From Naegleria gruberi (Eukaryota): a stretch of DNA of 64,000 bases. The number at the start of each line of letters is the position of its first letter. Positions within the stretch are counted from its first letter, which is position 1. Where the stretch lies: NCBI GenBank assembly GCA_000004985.1, contig GG738896.1; one strand, written 5' to 3'. Under the pieces are notes generated by a model that saw only the letters and a program-made list of their open reading frames with translations, ran no database searches and had not been told where the DNA came from. Positions 1,370-57,740 of this stretch are shown in pieces. Made by a program: the position numbers and the translations under genes.

Positions 1370-2875
1370 TCAATGTTTTTGTTTTTTATATGGATTTTCA
1401 TTCTCCTTCTCGGACTTTCGCTTGGTTTTGTCATTTTCGTCTGTGAGAGTACTGGTAGAATTAAAGATTTGATCATAATCAAATGTGTCAATACTTGGGT
1501 TCAATCCAATTATTTGCAGGCATTGTTCTGCAGATGGTCTACTTTTTCTTTCAATTTTAATCATCTCTTTTATCAATTCATGTAATTTGATGTGAACAAT
1601 ATCAAAATACTCTTCTTTAACTCTGGGATTTGTTATTTTTGATAATAGTGCATGTTTTTCAAGTAACCTTCCCAATAAAATCTCCATAAAAACCTTTCCC
1701 AATGAATAAATATCAGATTTTGGATGAATACAATGATCTTGACCTTTTCCTTTTTCAGGTGGATTATAGAAATATGTACCACTAGTTGATTGTAATAACT
1801 CATCATGAACATCATATGCCAAATCATCAGTTACAGTTAAAAAGCTCTTTGATAATTCAAAATCAATAAACTTAGCTCTATTTCTGAAAATAACAATATT
1901 ATTTGGTTTAATATCATTGTGTATTACCTTCTGTTCATGTAAATGTTTCAATTCACTCAATAATTGTATAATTAATTCTAATTTAGATATATTAAACCTA
2001 GCAGAAATATTGTCCACTTTCAACACTTCTCCTGCAAGAGATAACTCAAATTTACAACCTAATATTCTGTCACCCTCTCTTGTTGTCACTTTTTCTTGAT
2101 TGAAACATAGTGAACAAAAAGTATTACTTAAACTCTCAGAGTGTTTCAAAATCTTTACATAATAAGATACATTTTCATTGTTTGATGATACTGCTACAAA
2201 TAACTGCTTGTAATGTAAATTTACATGTATATTTGATAGAGTTATTAGAATATTATCTTGTCCTTTCATGAATATTAATTGATCATTTACCTTATAATCA
2301 AGTTTAGAATCTATCATATGAGACTTTTTAAGAGTAGAAAAAGAAGCAACATCATTTAAGGAGCATTGTATAATGTTAGATAGTATTTTCTCCTCCTCAC
2401 TCAGTGCATATTGTGAAGCTGTCATTATGAAAGAAAACAATAAATGATTCTTGTCTTGTTCATTTTCGTTTTTTACATCAAGAGGAAAGGTTCCAATGTT
2501 AAGTAACGTGTATTGAAAAGTTGTTGGGTTAGAATCATTCACTAAAATTTCTGTTCTATTATTTGGGAAACCTTTAATTCCAATAATACGAACAAATTTC
2601 TCATCTTTTAAAAAGAAGTATGTTACAAGTATTTTGACATTCTCCATAATTGAATATTCTATTTTTGGGTTTAAATTTATCATGGTAGAGCTATGGATAA
2701 CCCTTAATATGGTAATTGCTTTAACTAGATCAGTAATGTGAGTACTATCATGTTTAGTTGTGTCTTCAATAAAGTTTAATCTTTTGAATTTTCTATCTTC
2801 GTAGTTGTAATTCATTGTTTCTATGGCAGATATTTCATTTGATGGACCAATTAAGGAACTAAGCAGACCAAACAC
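1370..2875 (-). CDS. divergent protein kinase-like protein (atypical catalytic motifs)
   Basis: 501-aa ORF. The C-terminal half has a kinase catalytic loop VIHNDIKPNNIV (HRD replaced by HND), DFELSK in place of DFG, and a PPE (APE-like) motif followed by SDIYSLGKVFMEILLG. No GxGxxG glycine loop is present. A VKILK beta3-like lysine is present. Confidence 0.6.
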   Translation of the reverse strand: MFGLLSSLIGPSNEISAIETMNYNYEDRKFKRLNFIEDTTKHDSTHITDLVKAITILRVIHSSTMINLNPKIEYSIMENVKILVTYFFLKDEKFVRIIGIKGFPNNRTEILVNDSNPTTFQYTLLNIGTFPLDVKNENEQDKNHLLFSFIMTASQYALSEEEKILSNIIQCSLNDVASFSTLKKSHMIDSKLDYKVNDQLIFMKGQDNILITLSNIHVNLHYKQLFVAVSSNNENVSYYVKILKHSESLSNTFCSLCFNQEKVTTREGDRILGCKFELSLAGEVLKVDNISARFNISKLELIIQLLSELKHLHEQKVIHNDIKPNNIVIFRNRAKFIDFELSKSFLTVTDDLAYDVHDELLQSTSGTYFYNPPEKGKGQDHCIHPKSDIYSLGKVFMEILLGRLLEKHALLSKITNPRVKEEYFDIVHIKLHELIKEMIKIERKSRPSAEQCLQIIGLNPSIDTFDYDQIFNSTSTLTDENDKTKRKSEKENENPYKKQKH

Positions 2876-2972
2876 TTCTTCAGAAAATGGCTCTTGTGGG
2901 AAATGATTAAACGTATTTATACTGATATTTCTATATTAAATAACTAAACAGTTTCTGTTGTTGAATATATAC

Positions 2973-3446
2973 TTACTCGTTTCGTTTAAAATTAAATAAG
3001 CTTGTTAGTTGTAATAATTTTGTAAACTTGTTATCAACACTCTTTAATGTATTAGATTTTGGATTAGTGAAACATGAAATTAATTGCAATACTGTTTCTG
3101 GAGATATTGGTAAATCGAATCTATCCAACAATGTTATTGTTGTTGAAGTTATACCATTTCCAACTTCTTCCCCCATCACAATATTATCAACCAATTTATC
3201 AATTTCATTTCTAAACTCTTTAATGATGAATACATGTTCTTTAGCAGCTGAAAGACATACATCAACTTCATCGGAAAACTCAATATCCAATATTCTAGAT
3301 ACAGCTAGCAACTTTCGTTTCTCTACTAAATTGTTTGTACACCACGACTTTGGAAGTGTAAATGTGGCTAATTGTTCCTTAATGTTTTCGGGTGAAAAGG
3401 ATTTCTCGAATAAACTCATAAATTTGTCATCAAACTCTTGAGCCAT
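2973..3446 (-). CDS. hypothetical protein (157 aa, acidic, globular-looking)
   Basis: Clean ORF starting MAQEFDDKFMSLFEK. No family was recognised. Confidence 0.5.
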   Translation of the reverse strand: MAQEFDDKFMSLFEKSFSPENIKEQLATFTLPKSWCTNNLVEKRKLLAVSRILDIEFSDEVDVCLSAAKEHVFIIKEFRNEIDKLVDNIVMGEEVGNGITSTTITLLDRFDLPISPETVLQLISCFTNPKSNTLKSVDNKFTKLLQLTSLFNFKRNE

Positions 3447-7930: not shown

Positions 7931-9408
7931 TTATTCTTGTTGTTGTTGTTGTTGTTGTTGTTCAATATTATTATTATTAAATAAAGTAGGATCTCTAATA
8001 ATTTGTCTTTTAAAAGTAGGTTTAGTAAATTCAGTTAATTCTCTAGCATAGATTTCATATCTAGAAGTGGATTGAAACATCCATCTATCTTTAACTTGTC
8101 TATTTAAATTTAAATCAATTTCAGTAACTAGTAAACCATCACCTAATCTAGTTAATTCAGGTGATCTACTTGCATCAGGTGCACTAACATATGATGATCC
8201 ATAGAAATGTCCAAAATCTTTATGTGCTTTTTTACCATCAGCTGATGTAAATTCATTTGGAAATACTTCTGTACCAACTCTATTAATACTTGCTACAAAA
8301 TAACTATTAGCAATAGCTGCATTTCTTGCTTCTATTTTAATATTAAATATAAATTAAATTAAAATATAAATTAAATATAAATATATTAAATAATATAAAT
8401 ATAAATTAAATAAATAAATAAAAAACATACCAATTGACCACATAGGTTCAGATAAAGTACCAACAGTAGCAGAAGGATTAAAAACAATTTCAGCACCATT
8501 TAAACCATAAGATTGCCAATTTAAAGGAATATGTCTACCATAACAAATATTAATACCAATTCTACCAAAATCAGTTTCAAAAACAGGATGACCTAAATTA
8601 CCTTCCAAATAATAAGTTGCTTCATTAAAATCTCCAACACGTGGTATATGATTCTTTCTAACTTTACCAATATAATTACCTCTATTACCAATTACAACTG
8701 CTGTATTCCAAATTACATCATTATGTTCTGAATCTCTTTCTAAAATTGATGATACAATTACCATATTATATTTTTTAGCTAATTTAGATAAAAATTGTGT
8801 TGAACGTCCTGTTTCTGCTTCTTCAGAAAATTCCATCCATGGCTATATTAAATTATTATTATTATTTTTATATTAAATATTAAATATATTAAAATAAATA
8901 TTAAATAGTAAATATATTAAAATAAATAAAAAATATTAAATATATTAAATAAAATAATATAAAAAAAACCTACTTGTTTTTCTCTTGTACAAAAAGCAAA
9001 TGGCATTGTCCATGCTTCTTGTAAACCAATAACATTAACACCCATTAAATAGGCAGAATCAATAATTTTTTCAATTTTAGATTCAATTGCCTTATATTGT
9101 ACATCAATTGGTTCAGTTGTATTGGTTACAATAGAATTTTGTATTAAACCTAATTTAACAATACGTGGTTTTCTAGATTGTTCTAATTGAACATTATCAA
9201 TCATTGAATAAGCTCTAACTTCAAAATTATGTTCAATTGCTTGTTCTTTTACTTGTTTTGGAATTGGAAGTGATTTCCATTCATTACCATATAAAATACG
9301 ACGAACTTGTGAAAAGGTTTCTTGTGGAAGGTGTTGTTTTAATGCATCATATACTGTTGAAAGTGATGTCATTGGATCATTTGGTTTAATATGTTGATTA
9401 TTTTCCAT
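7931..9408 (-). CDS. pyd3: beta-ureidopropionase (beta-alanine synthase, nitrilase/CN-hydrolase superfamily), 3 exons
   Basis: Exons on minus strand: 9408..8974, 8842..8431, 8331..7931. Introns of 131 and 99 nt, with GTAGGT and GTATGT donors. The alignment to human UPB1 is near-colinear: [20 protein letters not shown]|[95 protein letters not shown]. The start was chosen at MENNQ… (9408). The ORF extends further upstream to 9549. Confidence 0.9.
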
Positions 9409-10150
9409 ACGAATTAATACTTCTTCACTTTTTACAATCATCATATTATTACATTGTAATGTTATTGTTAGAATACATAATAATAACATATTAAATACTA
9501 CTACCATAGTTGTAGTAGTAGTAGACTTATGTTTAGTGATCAAATTCATCTTGATTATATGAGTTTGATCAGTGAATGATGGCTTGATGATTTTTTTTTT
9601 GTAAATTTAATTTCAGTTCATTTGAGAGATGTGATCGACGACGACGGATCACACAACAAGTCTTCAGATGATCGATCACAACAACAACATCACAGGAGAT
9701 GGGATCATGAACTCTACGCAATGATAACATCCAATCAAATAATGCAATTGTAAACTAGTTGTATTTCACACATACATGTTTTAAATATTTATATTTCACA
9801 TAATATTATGCATTGCAGTAGGTTGTATAAATGATGATGCATGTATTTATTATTGATTTGATCAGACATGTACAACTGTAGTGTAATACATTACAAATAT
9901 AGTCATGGTGGTAAAGAAATAAAGATCATACCTTATTAGAGTTCTATTATCATATTGAACTTACTCATCAAAATCTCTTATACATCAAGTTGCATCCTAA
10001 CATTTTAATCTCCAACATGTTTTGCTCAGTTGAATTTTAAATTCAAATTTGAACTACTAGTATTATCATTTTTGAATTAGAACATATTTATTAAACTATT
10101 TATTAATATATATATATTTAGTATATGATAGAGAGAATAAAATAATTTAA

Positions 10151-10690
10151 TTAAAAATTATTTTTCCACATCATACTACCAACAGGTTGATTTGATTGAG
10201 CATTATATTTAGCATTTGATTTTTTACAATAAGGTACTAAAATAGTATCCTTATTAACAGGGAAATAAATTAATTGACCAATTGGCATTCCCTTATATAC
10301 TCTTGTAGGTTTGACACAATTAATTTCCAATGTCCAAGTACCTTGAAAACCAACATCACCTTTACCAGCAGTAGCATGAATAGAAATACCCAATCTACCT
10401 GTACTACTTTTACCTTCTAAAAATGGTACATGTTCATGTGTTTCTGTATATTCTTCTGTTACTCCTAAATATAATTCACCTGGTTGAAGAATATAACCTT
10501 CATCTGGTATATCAAATAATTCAATTTCATTATTCTTTTTAGCATCTAGAATTTCATCTTTATAAATTGCTAATTTACTACCAAGATGAACATCATAGGA
10601 ATTGGAGCCTAAATTCTTTCTATCATACGGTTCAATAATGATCGTCTTTTTTTCAATTTCTTTTAAAATTTCTCCATCTGTTAATATCAT
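10151..10690 (-). CDS. dcd: dCTP deaminase (bacterial-type dCTP deaminase/dUTPase-fold)
   Basis: Single-exon 179-aa ORF. The N-terminus MILTDGEIL and the motif GRLGISIHATAGKGDVGFQGTWTLEINCVKPTRVYKGMPIGQLIYF match the dcd family consensus. Confidence 0.8.
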   Translation of the reverse strand: MILTDGEILKEIEKKTIIIEPYDRKNLGSNSYDVHLGSKLAIYKDEILDAKKNNEIELFDIPDEGYILQPGELYLGVTEEYTETHEHVPFLEGKSSTGRLGISIHATAGKGDVGFQGTWTLEINCVKPTRVYKGMPIGQLIYFPVNKDTILVPYCKKSNAKYNAQSNQPVGSMMWKNNF

Positions 10691-19926: not shown

Positions 19927-19999
19927 CGCCCACCGTGGGGGTCGAACCCACGACCACAAGGTTAAGAGCCTTGCGCTCTACCGACTGAGCTAGACGGGC
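19927..19999 (-). tRNA. tRNA-Lys (anticodon CUU)
   Basis: The reverse complement GCCCGTCTAGCTCAGTCGGTAGAGCGCAAGGCTCTTAACCTTGTGGTCGTGGGTTCGACCCCCACGGTGGGCG folds as a cloverleaf. A and B boxes are present. It closely matches eukaryotic tRNA-Lys-CTT. Confidence 0.9.
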
Positions 20000-20336
20000 T
20001 TCACGTCCTAACACAACTACAAGATATTTTGTGTTTATCTTATTGTCAATTCCCATGTAGGGAAGTTTGTCATTTGGAATTACATGATGCTATAGTTTGC
20101 TATTCTCTTTAAATTAGACAATCAACACAAAAATCAACAGTTCAACAAAAGATGGTGGATGGAGTTAATTACTTGTTCGACAATAGTATGTATGTACATG
20201 AGTTTATTTACATGTTAGAATATCAAATACATATGTTAGAAAGAATGAATTAAATACACTGCTGATGAAAGGCTTTTTGTTTCATTTTTTGATATTAAGA
20301 AAAATACAATGTATTGAACAACTGGCAAAAGGAACT

Positions 20337-20409
20337 CTCCCCCTGGTGGGCTCGAACCACCGACCTGCAGATTAACAGTCTGACGCTCTACCGACTGAGC
20401 TAAGGGGGA
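20337..20409 (-). tRNA. tRNA-Asn (anticodon GUU)
   Basis: The reverse complement TCCCCCTTAGCTCAGTCGGTAGAGCGTCAGACTGTTAATCTGCAGGTCGGTGGTTCGAGCCCACCAGGGGGAG has a 7-bp acceptor stem. The anticodon loop is CTGTTAA. The T-arm GGTGGTTCGAGCCCACC is typical of tRNA-Asn. Confidence 0.85.
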
Positions 20410-20569
20410 ATTCATAGGCTGTTGAAAATATCTATAAATCTTATCATATATCGATAGAATGAAAAAACACAAAGCAAACTATTTAACTAATATAAGATTT
20501 CAGGCTTACTTTCTTCCTATGTGTAGCATTAAAAATTGCAAGTTTAGAGAGGAAAAAAAAAGTTCAAAA

Positions 20570-56291: not shown

Positions 56292-57620
56292 GATCTTTTT
56301 GAATTTCCTTATGACTATTGCAGTAAACGCCAAACTCAATTGCATTTCAGTAATTAATGGGATGAAATCATTGTGCAAAGTATGCTGTTGACCTGTTGAT
56401 AAAAAACTTGAAAGTTTTGGGAGTTTTTTCAATCTGTTGGCCAAGGTAGTGAAGAACTCTTTCATTTATGTACCTAAAATGCAAAGAAAGTTCCAAATAG
56501 ATCTGCATGTTCACATGATGAGTGCAAACATATTTTAAATGCTGCCAAAGGACATTTAAATTGTTTAAGTTTCTATTAATTATTAAAAAAATTAAGGTAC
56601 CAATCTGCATGTTCACAAATCCCCCATTCACAAACCATGGCTGGTAAGGAATGCAGCAATCATCTATGAACGAGGAAACCTACAGCGAAGCATGTTTCCA
56701 GTTCGATATCATGCTCAAGATATGTGACTACAGAGTCTTCATCTTGGTTAACCTCAAAGGTCAGATTGACTCAAAAAAGTCGAGTTTATGTATTCCTACA
56801 GAAAAGATCCTGTAGAAGTACAGTCAATGGTTTTATCAAGTTTCATTTGTGAGGTTTGTGATATTGGTTTTGAATGTGTGAAAAGTGAGGTTAAAAAATT
56901 GTGGTACTTTTATGTGAAAAATATAAATTTCGATTCAAGAAAATAATTGAATGTTGATGGCTTCAAGATCAGCTCACAATTTTTAAGAACTTCCTCCTGA
57001 AAGTTGTAAGAAACAACTAATTAAGTGAAGAATTTCCTCATTCCTTGCACAAATACTATTATAATCTGTGAAATGACAAAAAGACAGGTTCCTAATTGAG
57101 ATGAGGTGATATTGATCCTCCCTATGAACTTGTTGATCAAATGAAAATTACATTCATGAATGTTTGCTTCAAAAGTTGAAAGTGGCATTTCCTAAAATAT
57201 AAATAGAAAGAGAGCTGGCTTGAATGTGACAAAATTGTCTCTTGTTCAATTAAAAAAAAAGAAACCTCCTGCAATGAATCTTCAGTCGAGTATTTTCATA
57301 GATTCATTGAGCCCTCTTGTCCAATCAAATCGTTCTAGAAAGAGTGGCGGAGGGCTGATAATTAATGTAGAGGGAGGAAATCCCTGATTGTAACCAAGTA
57401 TTTGCAGTAATGTGAATCCACAGCAGTTAAAAGAGTCTCCTTAATAGTAAACAACAACCCGAACAATTTGGATAAGATTGAATTTACAAGTTTTTCAATA
57501 AAGTTCTTTAAATTGTCAAATGATTTGTATTTAATTTTCTTCAATGTTTGTACATTTCCATTTCAATATTCTCTACATTTCAATATTTAAAGCTGTAAAA
57601 ACAATAAGGTGAAATTAAAA

Positions 57621-57740
57621 AGACTACAGCTTCACAGGTTCCCAAGTTGTCTCCAACCTCAGTACTGATGTGGCTCGACGATGCTTAACTTCTCAAATCG
57701 GACGGGATGAGGTGCATTCATCGTGATATGGCCGTAGCCA
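57621..57740 (-). rRNA. 5S ribosomal RNA gene (chromosomal copy) with downstream T-run terminator
   Basis: The reverse complement (T)GGCTACGGCCATATCACGATGAATGCACCTCATCCCGTCCGATTTGAGAAGTTAAGCATCGTCGAGCCACATCAGTACTGAGGTTGGAGACAACTTGGGAACCTGTGAAGCTGTAGTCTTTTT matches the 5S consensus. It shares the GGTTGGAGACAAC block with Dictyostelium 5S. It ends in a TTTTT Pol III terminator. Confidence 0.85.

What the first reader, a model, noticed from the sequence alone, without database searches (positions are those of the whole stretch)
7931..10690. Adjacent pyrimidine-metabolism genes: beta-ureidopropionase next to a bacterial-type dCTP deaminase
pyd3-like beta-ureidopropionase (the last step of reductive pyrimidine catabolism) and a dCTP deaminase lie 740 bp apart on the same strand. 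dCTP deaminase is a bacterial or archaeal enzyme family, rare in eukaryotes but present in dictyostelids. It is intronless here, whereas its neighbour has two introns. The intronless bacterial-type gene is consistent with an old horizontal acquisition. The pairing of two pyrimidine-metabolism genes is notable.
Basis: partly seen in the sequence, partly recalled or inferred. Interest (0 to 1): 0.5.

Follow-up and report, generated by a model that had tools for sequence, protein, structure and literature searches.

The report
Naegleria dCTP deaminase acquired from Bacteroidota
Both genes are real, but the DNA is from the amoeba Naegleria gruberi, not a social amoeba: the dCTP deaminase gene was taken long ago from Chitinophagaceae-like bacteria, and its position next to beta-ureidopropionase is seen only in this species and looks accidental.

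Summary
On the minus strand there is a 3-exon beta-ureidopropionase gene (7931-9549) and an intronless 179-aa dCTP deaminase gene (10151-10690). Both translate exactly to annotated Naegleria gruberi proteins on one 331,721-bp contig, so the window is heterolobosean, not dictyostelid. The gap is 601 bp with the annotated start codon.

The Dcd protein passes the Pfam and TIGRFAM cut-offs and keeps the catalytic Ser, Arg and Glu. It is 70-78% identical to Dcd of Chitinophagaceae (Bacteroidota). Orthologues occur in N. fowleri, N. lovaniensis, Willaertia magna, Acrasis kona and two eukaryotic metagenome contigs. They share a 1-residue insertion and several derived substitutions. Different lineages gained different introns, and GC3 matches the host. 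This indicates an old, domesticated bacterial transfer.

It is not the Naegleria "Dcd1" gene analysed by Liang et al. 2023, so Naegleria has two dcd genes of different origin. I found no paper describing this one.

The pairing is not conserved. In N. fowleri, N. lovaniensis and Willaertia the two genes sit on different contigs with unrelated neighbours. The enzymes also work in opposite metabolic directions. Chance adjacency is the best reading.

Side observation: heterolobosean beta-ureidopropionases carry a conserved N-terminal extension that looks like a signal peptide.

The parts
10151..10690 (-). dcd: intronless gene for a 179-aa dCTP deaminase (dUTPase-fold Dcd family) of Bacteroidota-like origin. 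Catalytic Ser95, Arg99 and Glu122 are present.
   Evidence: ORF. Pfam PF22769 5.6e-39 and TIGR02274 111 bits above the 92.8 cut-off. Aligned to M. jannaschii DCD-DUT 1ogh with S118/R122/E145 conserved. 100% identical to N. gruberi P0001. 70-78% identical to Chitinophagaceae Dcd.
7931..9549 (-). beta-ureidopropionase (pyd3/UPB1-type, CN-hydrolase) gene, 462 aa. Exons 8974-9549, 8431-8842 and 7931-8331. Introns 8843-8973 and 8332-8430.
   Evidence: Splice model. Its translation equals N. gruberi P0121 exactly. Pfam CN_hydrolase 5.9e-54. 530 bits to Drosophila beta-alanine synthase 2vhh and 521 bits to human beta-ureidopropionase 6ftq.
9373..9549 (-). 5' part of exon 1. It encodes a 59-aa N-terminal extension: a basic start, the hydrophobic stretch MVVVFNMLLLCILTITL, then the conserved linker EEVxIx(L/M)E(G/N)N..HIKxND. 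It resembles a signal peptide or signal anchor and is absent from animal and dictyostelid enzymes.
   Evidence: Conserved in N. fowleri, N. lovaniensis, Willaertia, Acrasis and three metagenome homologues. The solved animal enzymes align only from residue 63 onward. Maximum 15-residue Kyte-Doolittle means are 1.9-3.3.
9550..10150 (.). 601-bp spacer between the dcd stop codon and the beta-ureidopropionase start codon. It presumably holds the dcd 3' UTR and the beta-ureidopropionase promoter and 5' UTR. GC is 27%, close to the window mean of 30%.
   Evidence: No tRNA or Rfam family was found here.

Best explanation
The window is nuclear DNA of Naegleria gruberi. Two independent, tandemly oriented genes lie on the minus strand.

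(1) dcd encodes a homotrimer-type, dUTPase-fold dCTP deaminase. It deaminates dCTP to dUTP, or possibly directly to dUMP if bifunctional; which product is made is unresolved. This supplies the dUMP needed for dTMP synthesis. The gene entered an ancestor of Naegleria, Willaertia and Acrasis by horizontal transfer from a Chitinophagales-like Bacteroidota bacterium, plausibly prey. It has since been fully domesticated: host codon composition, spliceosomal introns gained separately in the N. fowleri/N. lovaniensis lineage and in the Acrasis lineage, and it remains intronless in N. gruberi and Willaertia. It is a second dcd in Naegleria, distinct from the 'Dcd1'-clade gene described in 2023.

(2) The downstream gene is an ordinary, vertically inherited eukaryotic beta-ureidopropionase, the last step of reductive uracil/thymine catabolism. 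It carries a heterolobosean-specific N-terminal targeting-like extension.

The adjacency arose by rearrangement in the N. gruberi lineage and has no demonstrated functional meaning.

Shown here: organism, gene models, family membership, catalytic residues, closest relatives, distribution, introns, composition, and lack of synteny.

Inferred: direction and single origin of the transfer, enzyme activity, absence of co-regulation, and the meaning of the N-terminal extension.
For: Organism: both products are 100% identical to N. gruberi proteins on one 331,721-bp contig. The flanking genes are eukaryotic: C2-domain protein, cullin, protein kinases.

Family.

Bacterial affinity:
- Apart from heteroloboseans, the best 120 of 8000 hits are 178-aa bacterial Dcds at 72-78% identity.
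- The best 80 species-representative genomes are almost all Chitinophagaceae/Chitinophagales, including Sediminibacterium, Ferruginibacter, Lacibacter, Flavihumibacter and Segetibacter.
- The next cluster representatives at the 50% level are at most 62% identical.
- Viral contigs are at most 64% identical.

Single eukaryotic clade:
- NJ bootstrap is 83% for six heterolobosean sequences.
- With a heterolobosean profile there is a 30-bit gap to the next hits.
- The group shares a 1-residue insertion plus G6, D103S, G147K and E171G against 243 bacterial sequences.

Domestication:
- N. fowleri and N. lovaniensis share two introns that flank an 11-nt micro-exon. Acrasis has three introns at other positions.
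- N. gruberi dcd has GC 28.7% and GC3 11.7%. The neighbouring beta-ureidopropionase gene has 28.1% and 7.3%. Bacterial dcd averages 41.7% and 41.4% (all).

Distinct from Dcd1: the paper's N. gruberi gene is XP_002678007 / XM_002677961. It has a 519-nt CDS at 40.1% GC, an annotated intron, sits on the 442-kb contig GG738864, and its best prokaryote hit is 54% identical. The N. lovaniensis copy is on PYSW02000047, whereas the orthologue of the window gene is on PYSW02000008 (versus 15, 20, 62).

No synteny.
Against: - The phylogeny is only neighbour-joining on 177 columns. The bacterial backbone is unresolved.
- Adding the metagenome sequence P0028 and more bacteria lowers support for eukaryote monophyly: seven eukaryotic sequences plus one bacterial sequence group at 45%.
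- N. gruberi Dcd is as similar to some bacterial proteins (78%) as to Willaertia (77%) or Acrasis (73%). Sequence distance alone therefore does not separate one transfer from several.
- The genome scan was seeded by exact 8-mers of the query, which may bias the taxa recovered.
- I could not obtain a Dcd1 or Dcd2 sequence to place in the same tree.
- No expression data were available to exclude co-regulation of the two neighbours.
Confidence: 0.8

Rival explanations
1. One reading: a dictyostelid locus in which a dictyostelid-type bacterial dcd is paired, perhaps syntenically and functionally, with pyd3.
For: The AT-rich, poly-N/Q-rich sequence looks like Dictyostelium. Dictyostelids do have Dcd1 and Dcd2 (PMC10733785).
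Against: Both proteins are 100% identical to N. gruberi proteins. The dictyostelid beta-ureidopropionases are only 62-63% identical. No dictyostelid Dcd appears among the best 120 hits with either the single sequence or the heterolobosean profile. There is no synteny.
Confidence: 0.01
2. The adjacency is functional in N. gruberi: a small co-regulated pyrimidine-homeostasis unit that was recently assembled and kept by selection.
For: Both enzymes act on pyrimidines and both release ammonia. They lie on the same strand 601 bp apart. In Willaertia the beta-ureidopropionase gene sits head-to-head with a DPYD-like gene, so pyrimidine genes can cluster in this group.
Against: The pair is not conserved in N. 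fowleri, N. lovaniensis or Willaertia, and no neighbour of either gene is shared. One enzyme feeds dTMP synthesis and the other ends base catabolism, so they share no intermediate (established biochemistry). Chance expectation is about 0.16 such pairs per genome. The beta-ureidopropionase appears to carry a secretory-type N-terminus while Dcd does not, which would put them in different compartments.
Confidence: 0.07
3. The heterolobosean 179-aa Dcd genes come from several independent bacterial transfers, or spread between heteroloboseans by eukaryote-to-eukaryote transfer, rather than from one ancestral acquisition.
For: Heterolobosean-to-bacterium identities (72-78%) equal those between heterolobosean genera. 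Monophyly support weakens with more taxa. Intron positions are not shared between Acrasis and Naegleria. Genomic contexts differ completely between genera.
Against: A shared 1-residue insertion and four or more derived residues are absent from 243 bacterial sequences. Bootstrap is 83% in the first tree. The profile search shows a score gap.
Confidence: 0.1
4. The dcd ORF is bacterial contamination or an assembly artefact.
For: It is intronless and up to 78% identical to bacterial proteins.
Against: It is embedded between intron-containing or clearly eukaryotic genes on a 332-kb scaffold. Its GC3 of 11.7% matches the host, not the bacteria. Orthologues occur in four other independently assembled heterolobosean genomes, three of them with spliceosomal introns.
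Confidence: 0.01

Closest known systems
Dcd of Chitinophagaceae/Chitinophagales (Bacteroidota); 178-aa dCTP deaminase, TIGR02274
   Same: Colinear over the full length at 70-78% amino-acid identity. Same catalytic Ser/Arg/Glu and the same GKSSTGRLG and GKGDVGF motifs.
   Different: The heterolobosean proteins are 179 aa. They have a 1-residue insertion before a VPY motif, plus G6, D103S, G147K and E171G. The genes sit in a nuclear genome with host codon bias, and some lineages have introns.
Eukaryotic Dcd1 and Dcd2 clades (Liang, Mower & Chia 2023, Mol Biol Evol, PMC10733785)
   Same: Prokaryote-derived dCTP deaminases kept in AT-rich amoebae. The dictyostelid enzymes rescue E. coli dcd mutants, which shows that such transferred genes are functional.
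   Different: This is a different gene. The paper's N. gruberi Dcd1 is XP_002678007: 519-nt CDS, 40% GC, with an intron, on another contig, and at most 54% identical to any prokaryote. The window gene is 540 nt, 28.7% GC, intronless, and up to 78% identical to Bacteroidota proteins. The word stem 'Bacteroid' does not occur in the paper or its supplements.
Bifunctional dCTP deaminase-dUTPase of Methanocaldococcus jannaschii (PDB 1ogh) and Mycobacterium tuberculosis (2qxx); monofunctional E. coli Dcd (1xs1)
   Same: Same fold family and catalytic residues. These are the best solved-structure matches: 77.8, 68.8 and 53.8 bits.
   Different: Similarity is only distant. Whether the Naegleria enzyme releases dUTP or dUMP cannot be read from the sequence.
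Animal and dictyostelid beta-ureidopropionase (human UPB1 6ftq, Drosophila pyd3 2vhh, dictyostelid beta-alanine synthases)
   Same: 62-68% identity over about 95% of the length, a CN-hydrolase domain, and the motifs carrying catalytic Glu/Lys/Cys conserved.
   Different: Heterolobosean enzymes carry an extra N-terminal segment of about 30-65 aa (59 aa in N. gruberi) that resembles a signal peptide, with a conserved linker.

Membership tests
dCTP deaminase (Dcd; PF22769 / TIGR02274) | Matches the family profiles above the curated cut-offs over the full length | tested here: met
   PF22769 134.1 bits (cut-off 27). TIGR02274 111.2 bits (cut-off 92.8), covering residues 2-167 of 179.
dCTP deaminase (Dcd; PF22769 / TIGR02274) | Catalytic Ser, Arg and Glu (M. 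jannaschii S118/R122/E145; E. coli S111/R115/E138) | tested here: met
   S95, R99 and E122 align to these residues in the 1ogh alignment. They are invariant in all six heterolobosean sequences.
dCTP deaminase (Dcd; PF22769 / TIGR02274) | Catalyses dCTP to dUTP (or dUMP); homotrimer; inhibited by dTTP | not testable with these tools
   Needs enzymology or complementation of an E. coli dcd mutant.
   The only Pfam hit is DCD. No dCMP_cyt_deam family was reported.
Eukaryotic Dcd1 clade of Liang et al. 2023 | Is the Naegleria gene analysed there (XP_002678007; 519-nt CDS; intron present; closest prokaryote about 54% identical) | tested here: not met
   Accession, contig, CDS length, GC, intron status and best prokaryote identity all differ (versus 11, 15, 20, 62).
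Eukaryotic Dcd1 clade of Liang et al. 2023 | Groups with dictyostelid and other eukaryotic Dcd1 in a phylogeny | tested here: inconclusive
   No Dcd1 sequence could be retrieved. Indirect evidence only: no non-heterolobosean named eukaryote appears in the best 120 hits.
Horizontally acquired bacterial gene in a eukaryote | Closest relatives are bacterial and the gene is restricted to one eukaryotic group | tested here: met
Horizontally acquired bacterial gene in a eukaryote | Physically integrated: eukaryotic neighbours, host composition, introns in orthologues | tested here: met
   neighbours; GC3 and introns; orthologous loci.
beta-ureidopropionase (CN-hydrolase type, EC 3.5.1.6) | CN-hydrolase domain plus full-length similarity to solved beta-ureidopropionases, including the catalytic Glu/Lys/Cys motifs | tested here: met
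   PF00795 183.5 bits. 2vhh 530.8 bits, 8pt4 523.8 bits and 6ftq 521.3 bits. [15 protein letters not shown] and NICYGRH are conserved in the alignment.
Conserved metabolic gene pair or cluster | Adjacency conserved in related species | tested here: not met
   In N. fowleri, N. lovaniensis and Willaertia the two genes are on different contigs. No neighbour of either gene within 10 kb in those three species occurs in the 64-kb window. Acrasis is uninformative because its dcd contig is only 6.5 kb.
Conserved metabolic gene pair or cluster | Co-expression or a shared regulatory region | not testable with these tools
   No expression data were available.

The most novel reading that the evidence does not exclude
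Heterolobosea carry a third, independently acquired lineage of eukaryotic dCTP deaminase. It derives from Chitinophagales-type Bacteroidota and coexists in Naegleria with the Dcd1-type gene. If so, prokaryote-to-eukaryote dcd transfer happened at least three times. Two-Dcd systems would then have arisen separately in two groups of AT-rich amoebae, the dictyostelids and Naegleria. That is contrary to the published remark that social amoebae are unique in having two. The two Naegleria enzymes may have diverged in product (dUTP versus dUMP), regulation or life-cycle stage.
Probability: 0.75. Interest if true: 0.4.

Novelty: new member of a known kind. Interest (0 to 1): 0.3.

Why it matters
Bacterial dCTP deaminases in eukaryotes are a recently described curiosity, linked by Liang et al. 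2023 to dTTP supply in AT-rich genomes. That survey analysed a different Naegleria gene. It described social amoebae as unique in having two dCTP deaminases (Dcd1 and Dcd2), with Diphylleia rotans as the only other possible case. The gene in this window adds an independent, well-dated example with an identifiable donor group, Chitinophagaceae, which are common freshwater and soil bacteria.

It also offers a clean case of intron gain after transfer, including an 11-nt micro-exon. The pathogen N. fowleri has the orthologue, and humans lack this enzyme family, which gives the gene some interest as a parasite-specific enzyme. Horizontal transfers into heteroloboseans are numerous, so a specialist would find this useful rather than surprising. 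The gene pairing that motivated the finding is not meaningful.

Tried and rejected
- Exact-sequence look-ups of the two N. gruberi proteins for their contig returned nothing. The N. gruberi context therefore comes from the window itself.
- I tried to name the more distant Dcd cluster representatives, and to find the Naegleria or dictyostelid Dcd1 among them, with the listing of cluster members. Only one organism name came back, a Dependentiae MAG. Dcd1 and Dcd2 could therefore not be placed in my tree.
- Rfam and tRNA scans found nothing in or near the spacer. Its 27% GC is normal for this 30%-GC window, so the 'GC-rich intergenic' lead was dropped.
- A viral intermediate was considered. The viral contigs found by a pattern-seeded scan of IMG/VR hold only Dcds at or below 64% identity, further away than the Chitinophagaceae proteins.
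- Searches of the Acrasis kona genome paper and its supplements for this gene were uninformative, because 'dcTP' there is a taxon code.
- Literature searches for dCTP deaminase with Naegleria, fowleri or Heterolobosea, and for ureidopropionase with Naegleria, found no description of this gene.
- Mono- versus bifunctionality could not be decided from similarity to solved structures. The scores are mixed between the two types.
Full report
**1. What is in the sequence**

Both genes lie on the minus strand. The ORF at 10151-10690 encodes 179 aa beginning MILTDGEIL.

The neighbouring gene is assembled from three exons: 8974-9549, 8431-8842 and 7931-8331. They are joined across two very AT-rich introns with canonical GT..AG ends. 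Intron 1 is 8843-8973 (131 nt) and intron 2 is 8332-8430 (99 nt); both are 3-4% GC.

The spliced 462-aa product and the 179-aa product are each identical, residue for residue, to annotated proteins of Naegleria gruberi. Both of those proteins are recorded on a contig of 331,721 bp. The window is therefore N. gruberi (Heterolobosea, Discoba), not a social amoeba. The AT-richness and poly-N/Q tracts that suggest Dictyostelium are misleading.

Neighbouring ORFs are ordinary eukaryotic genes: a C2-domain protein, cullin and protein kinases. With the annotated start codon the two genes are 601 bp apart.

**2. Gene identities**

The 179-aa protein matches Pfam DCD (PF22769, 5.6e-39). It exceeds the curated cut-off of the NCBIfam equivalog TIGR02274 dCTP_deam (111.2 versus 92.8 bits).

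Its best solved relatives are as follows:
- the bifunctional dCTP deaminase-dUTPase of M. jannaschii (1ogh, 8e-21)
- the M. tuberculosis enzyme
- E. coli Dcd

In the 1ogh alignment, Ser95, Arg99 and Glu122 correspond to the catalytic S118, R122 and E145. Whether the product is dUTP or dUMP cannot be told from sequence.

The 462-aa protein has a CN-hydrolase domain. It aligns over residues 63-447 with Drosophila beta-alanine synthase (2vhh, 530.8 bits) and similarly with human beta-ureidopropionase (6ftq, 8pt4). The motifs that carry the catalytic Glu, Lys and Cys are conserved. Its closest non-heterolobosean relatives are eukaryotic beta-ureidopropionases at 62-68% identity, from animals, dictyostelids, Capsaspora and Planoprotostelium. 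It is therefore a normal, vertically inherited eukaryotic enzyme.

**3. Origin of dcd**

Among 5.8 billion proteins, the hits after N. gruberi itself fall into two groups:
- N. lovaniensis and N. fowleri (79-81%), Willaertia magna (76%), Acrasis kona (72%) and a metagenome protein P0002 (80%)
- hundreds of 178-aa bacterial Dcds at 72-78% identity

Among one genome per prokaryotic species, the best 80 loci are almost all Chitinophagaceae or Chitinophagales. They include Sediminibacterium, Ferruginibacter, Lacibacter, Flavihumibacter, Segetibacter, Edaphocola and Hanamia, at 70-74% identity. One caveat applies: that scan is seeded by exact 8-mers of the query.

In a library clustered at 50% identity, the representative of this Bacteroidota-type cluster is 69% identical. 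The next full-length clusters are at most 62% identical. Viral contigs reach only 64%.

**4. One eukaryotic clade, long resident**

A neighbour-joining tree with 300 bootstraps recovers the six heterolobosean sequences as a clade at 83%. The clade lies among or beside the Chitinophagales sequences, and the backbone is unresolved.

A profile of the six scores them at 360-382 bits. The next hit is P0028 at 330 bits, and bacteria score 322 or less. P0028 lies on metagenome contigs next to an RHD3/Sey1 GTPase gene, so it too is eukaryotic.

Compared with 243 bacterial sequences, the eukaryotic proteins share a 1-residue insertion before a VPY motif. They also share G6, D103S, G147K and, except in P0028, E171G. 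Adding P0028 and more bacteria lowers NJ support: seven eukaryotic sequences plus one bacterial sequence group at 45%. Monophyly therefore rests mainly on the shared rare changes.

The genes are domesticated:
- N. fowleri and N. lovaniensis share two introns, at codon 118 phase 2 and codon 122 phase 1, that flank an 11-nt micro-exon.
- Acrasis has three introns at other positions: codons 26, 111 and 155.
- N. gruberi, Willaertia, P0002 and P0028 have none.
- N. gruberi dcd has GC 28.7% and GC3 11.7%, like the neighbouring beta-ureidopropionase gene (28.1% and 7.3%). Bacterial homologues average 41.7% and 41.4%.

Contamination is excluded. The most economical history is one transfer from a Chitinophagales-like bacterium into an ancestor of Naegleria, Willaertia and Acrasis.

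**5. Relation to the literature**

Liang, Mower & Chia (2023, PMC10733785) showed that D. discoideum Dcd1 and Dcd2 are functional. They defined two eukaryotic clades, with Naegleria placed in Dcd1. Their Naegleria genes are different ones:
- N. gruberi XP_002678007 / XM_002677961: 519-nt CDS, 40.1% GC, intron annotated, 442-kb contig GG738864, best prokaryote hit 54% identical
- N. lovaniensis XP_044543397 on PYSW02000047
- N. fowleri KAF0981355

The window gene's orthologues are N. lovaniensis XP_044553026 on PYSW02000008 and N. fowleri KAF0972511. Naegleria therefore has two dcd genes of different origin.

The paper states that social amoebae are unique in having both Dcd1 and Dcd2. It never mentions Bacteroidota. 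I found no other paper describing this gene. Large HGT lists, such as that for Acrasis, may include it without naming it.

**6. The pairing**

In N. fowleri and N. lovaniensis, dcd is flanked by a Myb gene and an AMP-binding-enzyme gene. In Willaertia it has other neighbours.

The beta-ureidopropionase genes of these three species lie on other contigs. In N. fowleri the gene sits between otubain-like and ADH-like genes. In Willaertia it is head-to-head with a DPYD-like gene.

I translated all ORFs from these loci and searched them against the 64-kb window. Only dcd and beta-ureidopropionase themselves were found, apart from a stretch of the window's 5S rRNA gene region and a paralogous G-alpha fragment.

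The adjacency is therefore confined to the N. gruberi lineage. The enzymes do not share a pathway: one feeds dUMP and dTMP synthesis, the other ends uracil/thymine degradation. About 0.16 such pairs are expected by chance.

**7. Side observation**

All heterolobosean beta-ureidopropionases, and three metagenome relatives, have an N-terminal extension absent from animal and dictyostelid enzymes. It consists of a short polar or basic start, a hydrophobic stretch of about 15-20 residues, and small residues near a plausible cleavage site. Examples are Willaertia MRSSLVFVGILLIVLSCVIWA/ATADE and Acrasis MTKLVLSILPVLIFLVCAALA/HKEG.

In Naegleria and Willaertia a conserved linker follows, EEVxIxLEGNPHIKxND (N. 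gruberi reads [17 protein letters not shown]). Acrasis lacks this linker. In all of them the usual MTS(L/F)S start comes next.

This supports the upstream start codon at 9549. It also suggests entry into the secretory pathway or membrane anchoring. That is inference only, because no signal-peptide predictor was available.

**8. Verdict**

It is partly wrong on the organism, the dictyostelid affinity and the meaningful pairing. The gene is a new member of a known kind. Interest is modest.

Noticed in passing
window 9373-9549 (-); also P0122, P0123, P0124, P0131, P0129, P0130, P0136: Heterolobosean beta-ureidopropionases carry a conserved N-terminal extension of about 30-65 aa with a hydrophobic, signal-peptide-like core. 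In Naegleria and Willaertia a conserved linker (EEVxIxLEGNPHIKxND) follows it. The enzyme is cytosolic in animals and plants, so a secretory or membrane-anchored form would be unusual.
   Followed up: partly
L086 6265-9687 (-) and 10001-11505 (+) (Willaertia magna JBEGDK010000082): In Willaertia the beta-ureidopropionase gene is head-to-head, about 314 bp apart, with a 1041-aa gene that has the dihydropyrimidine dehydrogenase domain set (Fer4_20, Pyr_redox_2, DHO_dh, Fer4_21). These are the first and last enzymes of reductive pyrimidine catabolism as divergent neighbours. The arrangement is not seen in N. fowleri or in the N. gruberi window.
   Followed up: partly
L001 10354-10509 and L084 10354-10581: The dcd genes of N. 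lovaniensis and N. fowleri share two introns only 11 nt apart, which creates an 11-nt micro-exon (TTGGACACTTG in N. lovaniensis) inside the region that encodes the catalytic Glu.
   Followed up: yes
L087-L092 (JGI metagenomes 3300057248 and others), dcd at about 2673-3272: P0028 is a more divergent member of the eukaryotic 179-aa Dcd type. It sits next to an RHD3/Sey1 GTPase gene on contigs recovered from at least six metagenomes. It probably comes from an unsampled heterolobosean or related protist, and it keeps the bacterial Glu at position 171.
   Followed up: partly
window 56599-56827 (-), 57621-57739 (-), 19927-19999 (-), 20336-20410 (-): The window contains a U3 snoRNA gene and a 5S rRNA gene about 800 bp apart, and a tRNA-Lys(CTT) / tRNA-Asn(GTT) pair. 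In a translated search, L001 17315-17464 near dcd in N. lovaniensis matches the window's 5S rRNA gene region (57608-57685), which may be a 5S-like sequence; not checked.
   Followed up: no
window 7931-10690: Composition is extreme for a genome reported at about 33% GC. GC3 is 7-12% in both coding sequences and the introns are 3-4% GC. The other N. gruberi dcd (the Dcd1 type) is reported at 40% GC.
   Followed up: no
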